Shown piece by piece: positions 9,137-15,128 of a DNA stretch of 15,128 bases. Where the stretch lies: positions 1-15,128 of the forward strand of contig CAYMPD010000024.1 of assembly GCA_964392445.1 (NCBI GenBank). Reading direction: 5' to 3'. Position 1 is the stretch's first letter. Each line of letters starts with the position of its first letter. The DNA is from an uncultured archaeon. GTDB lineage: Archaea; Aenigmatarchaeota; Aenigmatarchaeia; CG10238-14. The notes below the pieces were generated by a model. That model had not been told where the DNA came from and did not search any database. It saw nothing but the letters and a program-made list of their open reading frames with translations. Position numbers and translations under genes: made by a program.

Positions 9137-9278
9137 AACAATGACGTTATCGTTACTAAGAACACTTATTCTAACGTAAAATAAAAAAATAATAGGGAGA
9201 GAATTATCCCTATCATCCACACTTTTAGTTAGTGATAGTTAGATTCTCTTCCTTAAAAAACTTGAGGTGGAAAATTTT

Positions 9279-9707
9279 ATGAAAAGTAAATTTGTTAAAC
9301 GTAGCTCTAGCATTGGAAGACATGAGATGCACATATCTTTCAAGACAAAATATTGCCATAAAGTATTCGAGTATGAAAAAGTTAGAAATCTATGTGAAAA
9401 AATCTTCTTAGAAGTAGCTGAAGAGATGAAAATAGATGTATGTGAAATAGGATTTGATAAAAATCATATACATATGGACATAGACATGGGATTATGGTCT
9501 GTAGTTCAAATTGCAAAAAAATTCAAAGGAACATCAGGACGAAAAATACTAGATACATTCCCTCGAATAAAAAAGAAATATTTTTGGGGATCAGGTTTTT
9601 GGAGTCCTGTAGTATATTTCGATAGTGTTGGGAACAATAGAGATTACATAAGAAAATACGTCAGAGAACAAGGAAAACAGCTAAAGATAAAAGAATTTCT
9701 GAATTAA
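9279..9707 (+). CDS. tnpA: IS200/IS605-family Y1 transposase TnpA, copy 1
   Basis: HISFKTKY, HUH motif NHIHM, KFKGTSGR, FWSPVVYFDSVG and catalytic YVREQ. ATG 9279 follows GAGGTG (9264-9269); the ORF-track GTG start lies inside that RBS. Confidence 0.95.
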   Translation: MKSKFVKRSSSIGRHEMHISFKTKYCHKVFEYEKVRNLCEKIFLEVAEEMKIDVCEIGFDKNHIHMDIDMGLWSVVQIAKKFKGTSGRKILDTFPRIKKKYFWGSGFWSPVVYFDSVGNNRDYIRKYVREQGKQLKIKEFLN

Positions 9708-9803: not shown

Positions 9804-10519
9804 ATCTAGATTACCACCAGTTTGAGTGAGTGAAACGAACGGAAACTGGTGGAACAATGACGTTATCGTTACTAAGAACACTTATTCTAACGTAAAATAA
9901 AAAAATAATAGGGAGAGAATTATCCCTATCATCCACACTTTTAGTTAGTGATAGTTAGATTCTCTTCCTTAAAAAACTTGAGGTGGAAAATTTTATGAAA
10001 AGTAAATTTGTTAAACGTAGCTCTAGCATTGGAAGACATGAGATGCACATATCTTTCAAGACAAAATATTGCCATAAAGTATTCGAGTATGAAAAAGTTA
10101 GAAATCTATGTGAAAAAATCTTCTTAGAAGTAGCTGAAGAGATGAAAATAGATGTATGTGAAATAGGATTTGATAAAAATCATATACATATGGACATAGA
10201 CATGGGATTATGGTCTGTAGTTCAAATTGCAAAAAAATTCAAAGGAACATCAGGACGAAAAATACTAGATACATTCCCTCGAATAAAAAAGAAATATTTT
10301 TGGGGATCAGGTTTTTGGAGTCCTGTAGTATATTTCGATAGTGTTGGGAACAATAGAGATTACATAAGAAAATACGTCAGAGAACAAGGAAAACAGCTAA
10401 AGATAAAAGAATTTCTGAATTAAAGCGAGCCCCCGAGCGAACTTAGTGAGCGAGCATGCCACCAGTCTATAGCGAGTGAAACGAGCGTTGACTGGTGGTG
10501 GGGCGAGCTATTGTTTGAC
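9804..10519 (+). mobile_element. IS200/IS605-family element, 716 bp, copy 2 (head-to-tail with copy 1)
   Basis: Same sequence as copy 1; abuts it at TTTGAC|ATCTAG. Confidence 0.9.
9995..10423 (+). CDS. tnpA: IS200/IS605-family Y1 transposase TnpA, copy 2
   Basis: Identical translation to copy 1. Confidence 0.93.
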   Translation: MKSKFVKRSSSIGRHEMHISFKTKYCHKVFEYEKVRNLCEKIFLEVAEEMKIDVCEIGFDKNHIHMDIDMGLWSVVQIAKKFKGTSGRKILDTFPRIKKKYFWGSGFWSPVVYFDSVGNNRDYIRKYVREQGKQLKIKEFLN

Positions 10520-10768: not shown

Positions 10769-12163
10769 CTAAATTTCAGTTAATATAGGAAAATTATCTA
10801 TCTTATATATTTCTTCTTTATTTGGGTCTATATTAATGAGATCCTTCCAGGCTTCTCTAGGAATAATATGTTTTTCTTCTTGTTCTTTTGATTTAAAAAC
10901 CATCTCCAATGGATAAGGATCTTTTAATTTTAAGTTAAATTCTTTTGGGTTATCCGCCATATAACTACCCTTGGTTGCTCTATATTTGGAAAAAAGTACA
11001 CTATCTAGAATTCCTTTATTCTCTTTAAGAAATTTTATTGTTTCCTGTAAATCCCCTTCTGTTTCTATGGGTAAGCCAGTTATTAGGTAACTAACGGTCC
11101 TTATACCTGCTTTTTTTGCATTTGATAGATTCTTTTTAACAACATCTAATTCTATATCCTTATCTATTTTCTTTAAAATCTTCTGAGAACCTGATTCGAT
11201 ACCTATCCAGAGAAAAGAACAGCCACTTTTTTTGAGTTTTTTCATGACCTTTAATGTCATTTCAGGTCTAACAACGCACATACCACCCCAAAGAACATTA
11301 ATTTTCCTTTTTTGTATTATATGGCACATTTTAAGTAGATCATTTATATTATGATTTATAAGACAATCATTGAATCTGAATATTTTAATATTATATTTTT
11401 TCCTAAGATATTCAATCTCCTTTACTACTCTCTCTGGATTTTTTTTCCTGAAATCCCCCCAAATACTTTTCTCAGAGCAGAATCTACATTTTTTTATACA
11501 ACTTCTACTCCCCTCTATTGATAGAATTCTGGTCCCAACCCTAAAATTGAGATAATCTTCTATTTTATTTTTATTGTAATTGGGAATTGGTATATCTTTA
11601 TAATTTATTTTGATTTTAGCCACCTTCAGAGGAACTTCAAATAACTCCTGACCCAAAAACAATTGATCGATACTGGGAAATCTTTTTCTAAACAAATCTA
11701 AGTGTTTCTTTCCATAAAAGTAAAACTTACTTCCCCCTAAATATATTTTAGTGTCTATCTCTCTTTTTAATTCCTTAGAAATATTATCTATCCAGGCTAA
11801 TGAACTTAAACTGCTTCGAAAATAATGAAAATTGAAATAAATTAAATCTGGTTCCTCTTTTATTCTTTCTCTAATCCAATTTTTCCTTATGGATTCATAT
11901 TTCTTTAGTAGATCTAAAATATAATTTTCGTTATGTTCAAAATCAAGTATCCTACCAATTGTATAATAAAATCTCAGGTCATCAGGAAAAATTTCTCTTA
12001 TTTTTTTCTCAAAATCCTCAATAAAAAGATTCATTAATTCTATATTGGGTTCCAATACAGTTACCTCATGACCTTCATCCTCGAATATCGGAACTAATTG
12101 CGGAATATCTAAAGTAGGATATCCTAAGAAACTAATTGGAGGTAAACTCAGATGAATTTTCAA
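10769..12163 (-). CDS. Cobalamin (B12)-binding domain radical SAM enzyme (class B methyltransferase-like)
   Basis: IEGSRSCIKKCRFCSE (CxxxCxxC), FRFND, GIESGSQKIL, SYLITGLP. The N-terminal B12-binding-like region includes PDLIYF...KIYLGGS. Start set at TTG 12163 (MKIHLSLPP) after GGAGGGCGGAG; the ORF track starts at 12217. Confidence 0.85.
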   Translation of the reverse strand: MKIHLSLPPISFLGYPTLDIPQLVPIFEDEGHEVTVLEPNIELMNLFIEDFEKKIREIFPDDLRFYYTIGRILDFEHNENYILDLLKKYESIRKNWIRERIKEEPDLIYFNFHYFRSSLSSLAWIDNISKELKREIDTKIYLGGSKFYFYGKKHLDLFRKRFPSIDQLFLGQELFEVPLKVAKIKINYKDIPIPNYNKNKIEDYLNFRVGTRILSIEGSRSCIKKCRFCSEKSIWGDFRKKNPERVVKEIEYLRKKYNIKIFRFNDCLINHNINDLLKMCHIIQKRKINVLWGGMCVVRPEMTLKVMKKLKKSGCSFLWIGIESGSQKILKKIDKDIELDVVKKNLSNAKKAGIRTVSYLITGLPIETEGDLQETIKFLKENKGILDSVLFSKYRATKGSYMADNPKEFNLKLKDPYPLEMVFKSKEQEEKHIIPREAWKDLINIDPNKEEIYKIDNFPILTEI

Positions 12164-12192
12164 ATTCTCCGCCCTCCGAAATTCTAATAGAT

Positions 12193-13530
12193 TTAAATTG
12201 CCTTTTCGGCCATCCAATTAAGTAATAATTTGCAGTGTTTACAAAAGTCATCGTCAAGTTCCCATATATCCCCTTTCTTTTGAAAAGCCTCATATAAACA
12301 ACCTCCACCACATATACCCATACCAATGCAATCTTTGCATTTCTCCATGTTTATTGGGGATCTATATATCCATTCCTTGATTATTTCTGATTTTTCAATC
12401 TTTTGAATGATATTTTTGTCTTTTATATTACCTACTATAAAATCTCCATTTTGGACAGCAACATGACATGGTGAAACATCACCAGTTGTAGATATAGCTA
12501 ATTCAGCTCCACATGCTGAACAATCATGAAAATAAGGCTTCTCAGTTATAAAAGATCTAATTTTTCTCATAATTCTATCTTCGTAATTCCTCTCTGTTGG
12601 TCTTTTTTTCATTCCTTCAAATGCATCTATTATTTTTTGAGTAGCTCTTTCCACTGGAGGTTTTGATGGGTGATTATAAGGTATATTCCTCATAACATTA
12701 AATGCTAAATTTTTGGAACTAAAATTATCTAGGAAATAACTTGGTAATCTTTCAAGAATATCTAAATTATGATTACCAACGGTACAAGATATACTTGGTG
12801 TGATTCCATATTCTTTTAGAATTTTAATTCCTCTTACTACATCCTCCCAAGTCCCCTCGTTATTTTTGTAAATCCTCATTTTGTCATTAACATCTTTATT
12901 ACCATCTAGGGAAATAACGACATCTATATTATTATCTTTGAAAAATCTCCCTATCTCATCTGTGATTAAAGAACCATTAGTTACTATTGAAATGGTCAAA
13001 GGCTTTTTATTGAATTGGCCTACTGATTTGAGTTTTTCTGCATATTTAGTGACAGATTTTAATGTTTCATAATTACATAGTGGTTCTCCCCCATAGAAAG
13101 TAATTTTGTAAGATTTTGAATTTTTATCTTTGACTTGAGAAAAAATTTTAACAGCCCTCTTTCCAATTTCAGGAGTCATATCTGTTATTTTAGAAGGTTT
13201 GATTTCCTTTTCAAAGCAGTACTTACAATCAAAATTACATTCGGTAGTTATGTTAAGATATAATATTCTGAAGTGGGGTTTAAATTCTCTTCTTTCATTC
13301 ATCTTTTTAATATAAATCTCTTCATCAAAATTTTTCGGGATGATGAATTTACCCTCTATTAATAAATCTAAAGGGAGACCATCCATAGGAATTTCATTTT
13401 CTATATTATCTAAAATTTCAATAACTTTTTTATTGACTTTTAATTTATTAAGAAATAAAGAATGATAAAGGAGAAAGTCATCTCCAAATCTAAAGTTAAA
13501 AGTAAATCTGGATTTTTTGTGTTCAGTCAC
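12193..13530 (-). CDS. Radical SAM/SPASM peptide maturase with probable N-terminal RiPP recognition element
   Basis: LNITTECNFDCKYCFE (C98/C102/C105), FYGGEP, VTNG, ISLDG. SPASM motif C-x9-G-x4-C...C-x2-C-x5-C-x3-C-x18-C. An ~85 aa N-terminal extension has a three-strand-then-helix pattern. Confidence 0.9.
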   Translation of the reverse strand: MTEHKKSRFTFNFRFGDDFLLYHSLFLNKLKVNKKVIEILDNIENEIPMDGLPLDLLIEGKFIIPKNFDEEIYIKKMNERREFKPHFRILYLNITTECNFDCKYCFEKEIKPSKITDMTPEIGKRAVKIFSQVKDKNSKSYKITFYGGEPLCNYETLKSVTKYAEKLKSVGQFNKKPLTISIVTNGSLITDEIGRFFKDNNIDVVISLDGNKDVNDKMRIYKNNEGTWEDVVRGIKILKEYGITPSISCTVGNHNLDILERLPSYFLDNFSSKNLAFNVMRNIPYNHPSKPPVERATQKIIDAFEGMKKRPTERNYEDRIMRKIRSFITEKPYFHDCSACGAELAISTTGDVSPCHVAVQNGDFIVGNIKDKNIIQKIEKSEIIKEWIYRSPINMEKCKDCIGMGICGGGCLYEAFQKKGDIWELDDDFCKHCKLLLNWMAEKAI

Positions 13531-13546
13531 TTTTATCGCTTAATTT

Positions 13547-13705
13547 CTAATCACAATGACAGCAGTCACAATTACATGCAGCACCTATTTCCCTCGATCC
13601 TGGTAATTTTATTTCCCCATAAAGCCTCTGAGTTAACAGCCCCATATCTATTTTTGTTACATATGGTAGTTCTAAACTTGGTACATAATCTCTCTTGTTT
13701 TCCAT
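13547..13705 (-). CDS. Putative RiPP precursor peptide, 52 aa, Cys-rich C-terminal core
   Basis: Not in the ORF track. Hand translation gives MENKRDYVPSLELPYVTKIDMGLLTQRLYGEIKLPGSREIGAACNCDCCHCD*. ATG start, TATA box 23-30 nt upstream, stop 16 nt before the rSAM/SPASM start. Confidence 0.82.
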   Translation of the reverse strand: MENKRDYVPSLELPYVTKIDMGLLTQRLYGEIKLPGSREIGAACNCDCCHCD

Positions 13706-13727
13706 GTTATTGGATTGGCACCACAAA

Positions 13728-13735
13728 TATTTAAA
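13728..13735 (-). promoter_or_regulatory. TATA box for the precursor-rSAM operon (probably leaderless transcript)
   Basis: TTTAAATA on the minus strand, 23-30 nt upstream of ATG 13705. Confidence 0.65.
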
Positions 13736-13752
13736 GTTAACCGTAATATCCT

Positions 13753-13760
13753 TTTAAATA
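13753..13760 (+). promoter_or_regulatory. TATA box for the phosphohistidine-domain gene (probably leaderless transcript)
   Basis: TTTAAATA on the plus strand, 23-30 nt upstream of ATG 13783. Confidence 0.65.
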
Positions 13761-13782
13761 ACTTGCTATTTATTTTTAATTT

Positions 13783-14136
13783 ATGACTATCTATGAGTGG
13801 CAAAAAATCGGTAGGGGAACACCGGCATCTATTGGAAAAGTTGAAGGAACTGCTACCTTGTTATATGATTCCTCAGAAGCTCCTTCTTTTCCTAAGGGGA
13901 ATATTTTGGTCGCTAGAAGGACATCTCAAGATTATGTACTTGCTATTTTTGCAGCTTCTGGTATAGTGACTGAGAGAGGAGGTGTAACTTCTCATGCAGC
14001 GACCATATCTAGGGAGATTAATTTACCTTGCATAGTTGGATGTTCTGGAATAATGGATGATTTAAAAACTGGAGATTATTTGAAAATAGATTGTAATACT
14101 GGAGAAGTTTACAGGAGAGTAGAGATTGAAAATTAA
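13783..14136 (+). CDS. Stand-alone PEP-utilising enzyme mobile (swivelling phosphohistidine) domain protein
   Basis: GTPASIGKVEG, GNILVARRT, GIVTERGGVTSHAATISREINLPCIVG, LKTGDYLKIDCNTGEV. Contains the GGxTSHAA phospho-His signature and no other domains. Confidence 0.9.
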   Translation: MTIYEWQKIGRGTPASIGKVEGTATLLYDSSEAPSFPKGNILVARRTSQDYVLAIFAASGIVTERGGVTSHAATISREINLPCIVGCSGIMDDLKTGDYLKIDCNTGEVYRRVEIEN

Positions 14137-14150
14137 TGAGGTGAGTATAA

Positions 14151-15081
14151 ATCTCAAAATCTTCAGTAATAAGAGAACTTTCCGAATTAAAAAGAGAATT
14201 GAAATCAGGTGGCTCGTTAGATTTCTCCACTAGTGCAGCGGCACTAATTAGAGATTATCCTTTTGTGTTATCAGAAGAGCCTTCTATTGTACAGGAAAAG
14301 GGTATAGAGGAATTTTCCCAACTTCGTATGGATGAAATTCTTGAGAGAGCAGAAGATGTGTTCCATTCAAGGATAAATATAACTCCGCAGCTTGGTAGAT
14401 TGTTATCGGAGCCCCCAAGAGAAGTCGAGGATGAATTTATTTTAACCTATCCTTTATACAGATATTCAGGTTTCAGAAGAGCTTGTGAGGTCGGTTATAA
14501 CAGAGCAACAGAAACTAATAATCCGGGCCCTGCGCAGAGAGCATTTACTAGATTGGTTCAAATAATTAAAGGATTATATCCAGAAAGATCTCAAATATTC
14601 ATTACAAGATTATTAAGACCAACTGAACCCAGTTTTTATATAAGATTACACGATGATTACGTTAATGTTTTTGGGGATGAACTGGGCCATATAGAAGGTG
14701 ATTTAGAAAAGTTGGATAGACTAATAAATTTGATGAGATCTGGGACTGAATACTATTTAAGTTTCCTAGAATTAACTGATACATATTGCTACGGAGATAT
14801 TAGAATGAGTGCCTCTGAAGTCTTAAAGCAAACATACAGACCTCTATTGATAGGCTCTGATTCCGGGGAAGTTTCTAAAATGACTGAAGTGGAAATTACA
14901 TCCCAGTTAACTGGAAGAGAAAGAAATGATTTTAGATATGCTTTGGCTGAGTTAAGAAAATCGATGGATTTTCAAAATAATATAGAGCCAATGAGATTTA
15001 GAAATCCTTCATTTAGGAGATATTCGGAATATGGAATAAGACTGTTGATTAGGGTAGCTAGAGTTGTTAATCAAATTAGTC
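14151..15081 (+). CDS. Hypothetical protein (>300 aa), truncated at the contig end; start uncertain
   Basis: Open frame from 14151 (ATC after a GAGGTGA RBS) or TTG 14199. No family recognised. The apparent C-terminus IGRASCRERV* is encoded by adapter sequence. Confidence 0.7.
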
Positions 15082-15128
15082 AGATCGGAAGAGCGTCGTG
15101 TAGGGAAAGAGTGTAGATCTCGGTGGTC
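15082..15128 (+). other. Illumina TruSeq adapter contamination (not biological)
   Basis: AGATCGGAAGAGCGTCGTGTAGGGAAAGAGTGTAGATCTCGGTGGTC is the read-through sequence of the TruSeq universal adapter. Confidence 0.99.

What the first reader, a model, noticed from the sequence alone, without database searches (positions are those of the whole stretch)
13547..13705. Precursor core CNCDCCHCD packs three known rSAM crosslinking motifs into nine residues
Seen: a 43 aa Cys-free leader ending IGAA, then C44-N45-C46-D47-C48-C49-H50-C51-D52 (5 Cys). Established motifs that map onto it: N-x-x-C (N45/C48; NxxcB-type Asn beta-thioether), C-x3-D (C48/D52; PapB/freyrasin-type Asp beta-thioether) and aromatic-x-D (H50/D52; triceptide-type three-residue cyclophane spacing). 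G41-A42 resembles a double-glycine-type cleavage site. Inference: a very compact polycyclic or metal-chelating core. The motif matches may be coincidental given the low-complexity composition.
Basis: partly seen in the sequence, partly recalled or inferred. Interest (0 to 1): 0.75.

Follow-up and report, generated by a model that had tools for sequence, protein, structure and literature searches.

The report
Archaeal Cys-rich radical-SAM peptide precursor

Summary
The ORF is there exactly as described (13547-13705, minus strand). It has a 43-residue Cys-free leader and then C-N-C-D-C-C-H-C-D. It is the only one of 6,979 small ORFs in its 1.2 Mb genome with 5 Cys in the last 9 residues, and it lies 16 nt upstream of an rSAM/SPASM gene.

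The maturase's best family is FibroRumin (TIGR04136), at 208 bits against a cut-off of 400. Most relatives of this maturase have precursors with alternating C-x-C cores just upstream.

One true orthologous cluster was found, in a metagenome contig (L089). It has the same order: unknown protein, precursor, SPASM rSAM (41% identity), B12-type rSAM (37.5%). Between the two precursors A43-C44-N45-C46-D47-C48 and the C-terminal Asp are invariant. C49, H50 and C51 are not.

So N-x-x-C survives, but it follows automatically from C-N-C-x-C. C-x3-D becomes C-x3-E. His-x-Asp is lost.

A complex model docks the leader on the enzyme's N-terminal domain (0.72 against a best control of 0.01).

The chemistry is inferred, not shown. 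The most likely reading is Cys thioethers plus a methylation.

Verdict: a genuine new variant of a known kind. The three-motif reading is largely coincidence.

The parts
13547..13705 (-). Precursor peptide gene, 52 aa plus TAG stop (13547-13549)
   Evidence: Translation. It is unique among 6,979 small ORFs of the genome. It has an orthologue at L089 3807-3935.
13577..13705 (-). Leader, residues 1-43, Cys-free. Y29, G30, S37, I40 and A43 are identical in the orthologue.
   Evidence: Alignment A2.
13610..13672 (-). Leader residues 12-32, the part a complex model places on the maturase. Residues 14-19 pair with maturase 30-36; residues 24-32 touch maturase 307-328 and 440-444.
   Evidence: complex prediction: score 0.72 against a best control of 0.01. 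This is a model, not a measurement.
13562..13579 (-). Conserved core A43-C44-N45-C46-D47-C48
   Evidence: Identical in L089.
13550..13561 (-). Variable tail C49-H50-C51 and the conserved C-terminal D52
   Evidence: L089 has E-A-A-E-G-D here. Only the final Asp is shared.
13728..13735 (-). TATA-like box, 22 nt upstream of ATG 13705
   Evidence: Read from the sequence. Its role as a promoter is inferred.
12193..13530 (-). RRE-like / radical SAM / SPASM maturase, 445 aa
   Evidence: Pfam hits PF04055, PF13353 and PF13186. Best NCBIfam match is TIGR04136 FibroRumin at 207.9 bits over residues 7-439, cut-off 400, followed by PapB at 180.4. C98, C102 and C105 plus seven SPASM Cys are invariant in 17 homologues. 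Nearest solved structure is CteB, 5wgg.
10769..12217 (-). B12-binding-type (class B-like) radical SAM protein, 482 aa from TTG 12217. The true start may be the TTG at 12163.
   Evidence: PF04055 at 80.5 bits; PF02310 only 22.4 bits against a cut-off of 32.1. All NCBIfam hits are far below their cut-offs. The orthologue at L089 5361-6863 is 37.5% identical, E 9e-94.
14199..15081 (+). Unknown protein conserved beside both clusters. Here it is divergent in orientation and cut off by the contig end.
   Evidence: BLASTP against L089 2720-3799 gives E 1e-14. No Pfam or NCBIfam family matched. An Illumina adapter starts at 15082.

Best explanation
This is a functional-looking RiPP operon in a small-genome archaeon from a microbial mat. 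The order is precursor, then RRE-like/rSAM/SPASM maturase, then a B12-type rSAM. It is a divergent, minimal-core branch of the alternating-cysteine 'FibroRumin-like' peptide family.

Proposed mechanism (inferred unless marked otherwise):
- The leader, residues about 12-32, docks as a strand on the maturase's N-terminal recognition domain. This step has model support only.
- The SPASM enzyme then uses a 5'-deoxyadenosyl radical to join thiols of the conserved C44/C46/C48 to carbon atoms of neighbouring residues, forming thioethers. The most likely acceptors are the carbons next to the carboxylate or amide of the conserved D47, N45 or C-terminal D52, as in PapB- and QhpD-type enzymes.
- The class-B rSAM adds one or more methyl groups.
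- The leader is then removed just before C44, by a protease that is not encoded in the cluster.

The individual matches to N-x-x-C, C-x3-D and His-x-Asp are by-products of the (C-x)n pattern, not three stacked systems.
For: Gene reality and linkage:
- The ORF is unique in its genome.
- It lies 16 nt from the maturase.
- A metagenome contig has the same four-gene arrangement, with a 41%-identical maturase, a 37.5%-identical B12-type rSAM, a homologous unknown protein and a homologous precursor.
- In a quick IQ-TREE of 60 maturases, the window enzyme and L089 are sisters (SH-aLRT 99).

Family placement:
- The best model for the maturase is TIGR04136, aligned over its full length.
- At least 32 of the 48 best genome loci have a Cys-rich ORF directly upstream.
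- C-x-C spacing dominates those cores, at 151 of 246 intervals.
- True FibroRumin precursors and maturase are recognised in L038: 68.3 and 51.6 bits for TIGR04135, and 777 bits for TIGR04136.

Enzyme competence:
- The CX3CX2C motif and seven SPASM Cys are invariant.
- The nearest solved structure is the thioether-forming CteB.

Binding:
- Complex prediction scored 0.72, against 0.01 for the best of 3 controls.
- That mark was reached by 58 of 80 solved complexes and by 2 of 110 mismatched pairs. These counts hold only roughly here, because my own alignments were used.
- The three runs agree in at least 41% of their contacts, and the partner's pLDDT is at least 54.
- Solved leader-RRE complexes of related enzymes exist, so the pass may reflect likeness rather than show that this copy binds.

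Chemistry leads:
- PapB is the second-best family hit (180 bits).
- PapB links Cys to Asp/Glu and also to a C-terminal carboxylate residue (PMC12373016).
- Both orthologous precursors end in Asp and keep D47.
- L052, a member of the same maturase clade, has a repeat ORF with C-x3-D spacing five times.
Against: - No chemistry is shown. The library holds no paper that contains 'FibroRumin', TIGR04135 or TIGR04136.
- Both the maturase and the precursor fail the curated cut-offs of every named family.
- Conservation rests on a single orthologue.
- A leader-only HMM built from the wider family scores the window leader at noise level, 0.3 bits. Leader kinship to the wider family is therefore only visual.
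- Some family cores, such as L016, contain only Cys, Ala, Gly and Ser. Asp/Asn acceptors therefore cannot be general for the clade.
- The complex model does not place the core in the active site.
- The roughly 233-aa HExxH-type protein that follows the maturase in at least 14 related loci has no tblastn hit in this genome. An IS200 dimer lies just beyond the cluster, so the pathway may be incomplete here.
- The Pfam B12-binding domain is below its cut-off.
Confidence: 0.6

Rival explanations
1. It is a sactipeptide-type product. The three alternating Cys act as donors to alpha-carbons of downstream residues in a hairpin, as StsB does with its C-x-C-x-C ... G-x-G-x-G substrate.
For: StsA has a C-x-C-x-C donor block, and StsB makes three Cys-Gly sactionines from it (PMC10288494). 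Residues between and after the Cys in the wider family are very variable and include Gly and Ala, which favours a backbone acceptor. The StsB model does hit the maturase, at 77.9 bits.
Against: The StsB score is far below its cut-off of 625. The closer families (FibroRumin-like, PapB, SCIFF, QhpD) are, where characterised, non-alpha thioether formers. The tail after C48 is only 4 residues long in the window peptide.
Confidence: 0.18
2. It is a metal-binding or metallophore-like peptide. Most Cys stay as free thiols, giving a metallothionein-like set of C-x-C and C-C motifs. The rSAM enzymes would make only a minor modification, or one that does not involve Cys.
For: There are five Cys plus His, Asp and Asn in nine residues. 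C-x-C is a classic thiolate-cluster spacing (general knowledge, not tested here).
Against: C49, H50 and C51 are not conserved in the orthologue, which has only 3 Cys and no His. The maturase's kin are Cys-crosslinking enzymes.
Confidence: 0.1
3. It is a remnant or silent cluster. The genes are intact, but the pathway is no longer complete in this genome, so no mature product is made.
For: The accessory HExxH-type gene seen in L089 and many other loci has no tblastn hit in this genome. A tandem IS200 pair lies directly beyond the B12-type gene. The cluster's GC is 0.29-0.33, against 0.35-0.37 in the flanks. Maturases of this family are sporadic, found in 2 of 370 other genomes of the phylum.
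Against: All three ORFs are open and their catalytic Cys motifs are intact. The genome is only 94.9% complete, so the missing gene may simply be unassembled.
Confidence: 0.1
4. It is a chance ORF and not a gene.
For: The genome is AT-rich and has many short ORFs. The ORF has no Pfam or NCBIfam hit.
Against: It is the only ORF of its kind among 6,979. It has a syntenic homologue. The complex model passes its controls.
Confidence: 0.02

Closest known systems
FibroRumin system (NCBIfam TIGR04135 precursor, TIGR04136 rSAM/SPASM maturase)
   Same: It is the best-scoring family for the maturase, aligned over its full length. A Cys-rich precursor with C-x-C spacing lies directly upstream. A short hydrophobic-Gly leader motif lies 10-16 residues before the core, though this match is only visual.
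   Different: The maturase scores 208 bits against a cut-off of 400, and the precursor does not hit TIGR04135. The core is 9 residues with 3 conserved Cys, against 7-13 Cys in typical members. It has an extra B12-type rSAM and a conserved unknown protein. The host is archaeal. The chemistry of FibroRumin itself is not described in the searchable literature.
PapB / freyrasin ranthipeptides (Cys to Asp/Glu beta/gamma thioethers; also to C-terminal carboxylate residues, PMC12373016)
   Same: It is the second-best maturase family (180 bits). D47 and the C-terminal Asp are conserved, and C-x3-D/E spacing is present in both orthologues.
   Different: The score is below the PapB cut-off of 340. There is no repeated C-x3-D array. 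The acceptor has not been determined.
StsB / streptosactin-type sactisynthase (PMC10288494)
   Same: It has a C-x-C-x-C donor block in a very short core.
   Different: StsB belongs to the MftC-like group and scores only 78 bits here, against a cut-off of 625. Its G-x-G-x-G acceptor block is absent.
CteB / SCIFF maturase (PDB 5wgg)
   Same: It is the nearest solved structure (E 1.6e-30). The architecture is the same: an N-terminal recognition domain, the rSAM core and a twin-cluster SPASM domain.
   Different: The SCIFF model scores 155 bits against a cut-off of 425. The SCIFF precursor pattern is different.
NxxcB (Asn beta-thioether; recalled from Caruso et al. 2019, not re-read here)
   Same: N45-x-x-C48 is present and conserved in the orthologue.
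   Different: The motif is an automatic consequence of C-N-C-x-C and occurs in only 12 of 40 family cores. No NxxcB-type model is among the 25 best of the 79 NCBIfam hits, which are all that one search shows.
CrpC/CrpA of Methanococcus voltae (PMC13692751)
   Same: It is an archaeal SPASM rSAM enzyme that installs thioether crosslinks on a Cys-rich substrate encoded next to it.
   Different: CrpA is a protein, not a short leader-core peptide. No specific sequence relationship was tested.

Membership tests
FibroRumin (strict, NCBIfam equivalog) | Maturase reaches the TIGR04136 cut-off of 400 bits | tested here: not met
   It scores 207.9 bits. L038 scores 777 bits as a positive control.
FibroRumin (strict) | Precursor reaches the TIGR04135 cut-off of 45 bits | tested here: not met
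   No hit at E <= 0.01. The L038 precursors score 68.3 and 51.6 bits.
FibroRumin-like clade (broad) | A short ORF with an alternating-Cys core lies directly upstream of a maturase whose best model is TIGR04136 | tested here: met
RRE-dependent rSAM/SPASM RiPP maturase | CX3CX2C motif, seven-Cys SPASM motif and an N-terminal peptide-recognition domain that takes the leader | tested here: met
   C98/C102/C105 and C337/C355/C398/C401/C407/C411/C430 are invariant. PF13186 is present. The leader is modelled on residues 20-57, score 0.72 against a best control of 0.01. This last point is model-level only.
Ranthipeptide (PapB family NF047865; SCIFF TIGR03974) | Maturase reaches the family cut-off | tested here: not met
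   PapB scores 180.4 against 340. SCIFF scores 155.3 against 425.
Ranthipeptide | Thioether from Cys S to a non-alpha carbon | not testable with these tools
   This needs MS/MS, desulfurisation labelling or NMR.
NxxcB-type Asn beta-thioether | Conserved N-x-x-C in the core, together with an NxxcB-family enzyme | tested here: inconclusive
   The motif is kept in L089. It is implied by C-N-C-x-C and is present in only 12 of 40 family cores. Membership of the enzyme family was not shown.
Triceptide / three-residue cyclophane (XyeB, GrrM, FxsB, YhhB) | Conserved aromatic-x-acceptor motif, together with a cyclophane-forming maturase | tested here: not met
   H50 is not conserved, and L089 has no aromatic residue in its core. 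The XyeB, GrrM and YhhB models score 79-107 bits against cut-offs of 310-450.
Double-glycine leader with C39 peptidase export | GG/GA cleavage site, together with a C39-domain transporter in the cluster | tested here: inconclusive
   G-A-A and S-G-A precede the first Cys, with Ile at -4 in both orthologues. No C39 gene is in the window. A 149-aa stand-alone C39-like gene lies on contig C8.
Class B (cobalamin) rSAM methyltransferase | B12-binding domain plus rSAM core | tested here: inconclusive
   The rSAM core scores 80.5 bits. PF02310 scores 22.4 against a cut-off of 32.1. The best NCBIfam hit, ApyD, scores 99.6 against 750.

The most novel reading that the evidence does not exclude
The SPASM enzyme and the B12-type rSAM together turn a six-residue A-C-N-C-D-C motif into a previously undescribed scaffold, for example a methylated bicyclic or tricyclic thioether on Asn/Asp. 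That would define a new RiPP subclass, so far known from only two uncultured small-genome organisms. It would also be the first chemically defined product of the whole FibroRumin-like clade, possibly acting as a signal or metal ligand in an archaeal episymbiont.
Probability: 0.2. Interest if true: 0.75.

Novelty: new variant of a known kind. Interest (0 to 1): 0.5.

Why it matters
The alternating-cysteine, FibroRumin-like peptides are widespread in candidate-phyla bacteria, small-genome archaea and gut anaerobes. I found no published chemistry for them.

This locus and its one orthologue offer the smallest substrate of the clade: three conserved Cys, one Asn and one Asp. That makes it a tractable entry point for working out what these enzymes do.

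It also pairs the clade with a class-B-type rSAM, although the core has none of the usual methylation targets. Archaeal rSAM RiPPs are still very few.

For the scan itself, the result is a caution. Short motif matches inside low-complexity Cys-rich cores are mostly a matter of composition.

Tried and rejected
The contigs of the next-closest maturases (P0006, P0017, P0029, P0036, P0043, P0045) therefore could not be fetched.
- The word-indexed protein search with the precursor found nothing. With the two-sequence alignment it found only the L089 peptide itself.
- A full HMMER search of 1.84 billion representatives found only that peptide and a 1,533-aa protein that matches the profile in five separate stretches and that I take to be spurious. 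Short ORFs are often not called, so this is weak evidence of rarity.
- There is no paralogue of the precursor in its own genome. The four other SPASM paralogues have no Cys-rich peptide beside them.
- No maturase orthologue was found in 60 relatives. Only 2 distant ones were found in 370 genomes of the phylum.
- A leader-only HMM from the wider family gave 0.3 bits, which is noise. I do not claim statistical leader homology to the wider family.
- A scan of viral contigs for G-A-C-N-C-D-C gave 18 hits, all chance matches with no rSAM nearby.
- Sequencing runs: no RNA holder is listed. One microbial-mat DNA run holds 36% of the words at about 4x depth, and its contigs show no differences.
- The Atlas search for the conserved unknown protein gave no usable hit and a poor model. 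For the HExxH-type protein it returned only unnamed clusters, one of which has a 21% share of Peptidase_M78.
- ApyD as a functional guide for the B12-type enzyme was rejected. ApyD methylates Tyr C-beta (PMC10635010), and the match covers only the generic rSAM core.
- Searches for 'FibroRumin' or the TIGR numbers in papers returned nothing.

Full report
**Observation.** The minus-strand ORF at 13547-13705 encodes 52 residues. It has a Cys-free leader of 43 residues and the core C44-N45-C46-D47-C48-C49-H50-C51-D52. The genome holding the window is 1.2 Mb in 54 contigs, 94.9% complete, with 34.5% GC. The window also encodes ribosomal protein L35Ae and diphthamide synthase, so the organism is an archaeon. 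Its relatives have genomes of 0.3-1.3 Mb. Of 6,979 ORFs of 30-150 aa in the genome, this is the only one with five Cys in its last nine residues. It ends 16 nt before an rSAM/SPASM gene on the same strand.

**Surroundings.**
- Downstream on the same strand is a 445-aa enzyme with Radical_SAM, Fer4_12 and SPASM domains. Its best NCBIfam model is the FibroRumin maturase TIGR04136 at 207.9 bits, aligned over residues 7-439, against a cut-off of 400. PapB (180.4), nif11-type, SCIFF and QhpD follow, all below their cut-offs.
- The CX3CX2C motif (C98, C102, C105) and seven SPASM cysteines are invariant among 17 homologues. The nearest solved structure is CteB.
- Next on the strand is a 482-aa B12-binding-type rSAM. 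Its Pfam B12 domain is below threshold, and all its NCBIfam hits are far below their cut-offs.
- Beyond that lie two identical IS200 transposase copies.
- On the other side, divergently oriented, are a 117-aa PEP-utilizer swivel-domain protein and an unknown protein. The end of the unknown protein is an Illumina adapter at the contig end.

**The wider family.** A scan of species-representative genomes with a maturase alignment gave 80 loci.
- At least 32 of the 48 best loci carry a short ORF with a Cys-rich core just upstream of the maturase.
- The dominant feature of these cores is alternating cysteine. C-x-C spacing makes up 151 of 246 Cys-Cys intervals. The intervening residue is mostly Ser, Ala, Asn, Asp or Thr.
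- The precursors and maturase of Lachnospiraceae locus L038 pass the curated FibroRumin models. The window enzyme, L089, L054, L013, L017 and L052 all have that model as their best hit but fall below the cut-off.
- The system is therefore a divergent relative, not a strict member.
- No paper in the library mentions FibroRumin or its TIGR numbers. As far as I can see, the clade's chemistry is not described.

**The orthologue.** The closest database maturase is 41% identical. A pattern built from a stretch shared by the two proteins retrieved its metagenome contig, L089. The gene order there is:
- an unknown 359-aa protein, homologous to the window's truncated unknown protein (E 1e-14);
- a 42-aa precursor;
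- the SPASM maturase;
- a B12-type rSAM, 37.5% identical to the window's (E 9e-94);
- a 233-aa HExxH-type protein, a creatininase-family protein and an adenylate-forming-like protein.

The two maturases are sisters in a 60-sequence quick tree (SH-aLRT 99). They sit inside a group that holds other small-genome archaea and the Asp/Asn-rich C-x-C cores of L013, L019 and L029.

The two precursors align with E 9e-7. Invariant positions are K18, M21, L23, Y29, G30, S37, I40, A43, C44, N45, C46, D47, C48 and the terminal Asp. C49, H50 and C51 are not conserved.

No further member was found by word search, by HMMER over 1.84 billion representatives, in 370 genomes of the phylum, or in viral contigs.

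- His-x-Asp is lost in the orthologue, and the cyclophane-maturase models score poorly. The triceptide reading fails.
- C48-x3-D52 corresponds to C-x3-E in L089. This is compatible with PapB-type chemistry, which accepts Asp or Glu and even a C-terminal carboxylate residue (PMC12373016). The spacing occurs in only 11-13 of 40 family cores.
- N-x-x-C is retained, but it is contained in C-N-C-x-C. It occurs in 12 of 40 cores.
- The conserved unit is A-C-N-C-D-C plus a C-terminal Asp.

**Mechanism.** A complex model of the maturase and the precursor passed its controls. The score was 0.72, against 0.01 for the best of three controls. That mark was reached by 58 of 80 solved complexes and by 2 of 110 mismatched pairs. 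These counts hold only roughly here, because my own alignments were used. The runs share at least 41% of their contacts, and the partner's pLDDT is at least 54.
- The model lays leader residues 14-19 along maturase residues 30-36 in the N-terminal domain. Residues 24-32 lie against maturase 307-328 and 440-444.
- The core is not placed.
- Related leader-enzyme complexes are solved, so this pass shows likeness more than proof.

From the enzyme's kinship I infer Cys-derived thioethers. The acceptor is open: the beta carbon of Asp or Asn, the C-terminal residue, or alpha carbons as in StsB, which uses a C-x-C-x-C donor block (PMC10288494). The B12-type enzyme is specific to the window-L089 pair among the loci examined, and its target is unknown. 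ApyD, its top-named hit, methylates Tyr C-beta and is not a useful guide.

**Caveats.**
- Conservation rests on one orthologue.
- A leader-only HMM from the wider family scores the window leader at noise level.
- The HExxH-type accessory gene seen in at least 14 related loci has no tblastn hit in this genome.
- The cluster has a lower GC than its flanks, and maturases of this family are sporadic in the phylum. Both fit acquisition by transfer, and possibly an incomplete pathway.
- The source run is a microbial-mat metagenome at about 4x depth, and no RNA holder is listed.

**Verdict.** This is a genuine RiPP precursor. It is a new variant of a known but chemically uncharacterised kind. The eye-catching three-motif packing is largely coincidental. 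The useful result is the conserved minimal core and the conserved four-gene set.

Noticed in passing
window 15082-15128: An Illumina adapter (A-G-A-T-C-G-G-A-A-G-A-G-C at 15082-15094) sits at the contig end. The last residues of the 305-aa ORF at 14199-15116 are therefore an artefact, and the gene is truncated.
   Followed up: yes
window 14199-15081 (+); L089 2720-3799: An unknown protein with no Pfam or NCBIfam family is conserved next to both orthologous clusters (E 1e-14). The Atlas model is poor (pLDDT 0.38). It may be a fourth pathway component.
   Followed up: partly
L089 6872-7573; L087 1476-2192; also L007, L012, L015, L016, L018, L020, L024, L025, L028, L031, L046, L053, L076: A roughly 233-aa protein with an H-E-x-x-H motif and no family assignment follows the maturase in at least 14 FibroRumin-like loci. 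It is a candidate leader peptidase. It has no tblastn hit in the window's genome.
   Followed up: partly
L052 5286-5480: Directly after a FibroRumin-like maturase in a Nitrospinales MAG lies a 64-aa ORF with five P-T-D-D-C-G repeats. This gives C-x3-D spacing, reminiscent of freyrasin-type substrates.
   Followed up: partly
L088 1300-3078; L034; L050: In several small-genome archaea the maturase is 590-640 aa. In L088 the extra part is a C-terminal extension. Two database relatives (P0088, P0099) carry acetyltransferase (PF00583) domains.
   Followed up: no
G000 contig C8 14654-15103 (L090 1480-1929): This is a stand-alone 149-aa C39-like cysteine peptidase with no transporter domain. It lies next to glycosyltransferase-like genes and is unlinked to the RiPP cluster.
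   Followed up: partly
window 9267-9707 and 9983-10423: Two identical tandem IS200-type transposase genes lie between the halves of a class I methyltransferase, just beyond the B12-type rSAM gene. Other first-stage notes already cover this.
   Followed up: no
window 13783-14136 (+): A 117-aa protein consists only of a PEP-utilizer swivel domain. It lies between the precursor's promoter region and the conserved unknown gene. There is no counterpart in L089.
   Followed up: no
window 10801-13800: The RiPP cluster has a GC of 0.29-0.33, against 0.35-0.37 in the flanks and 0.345 genome-wide.
   Followed up: partly
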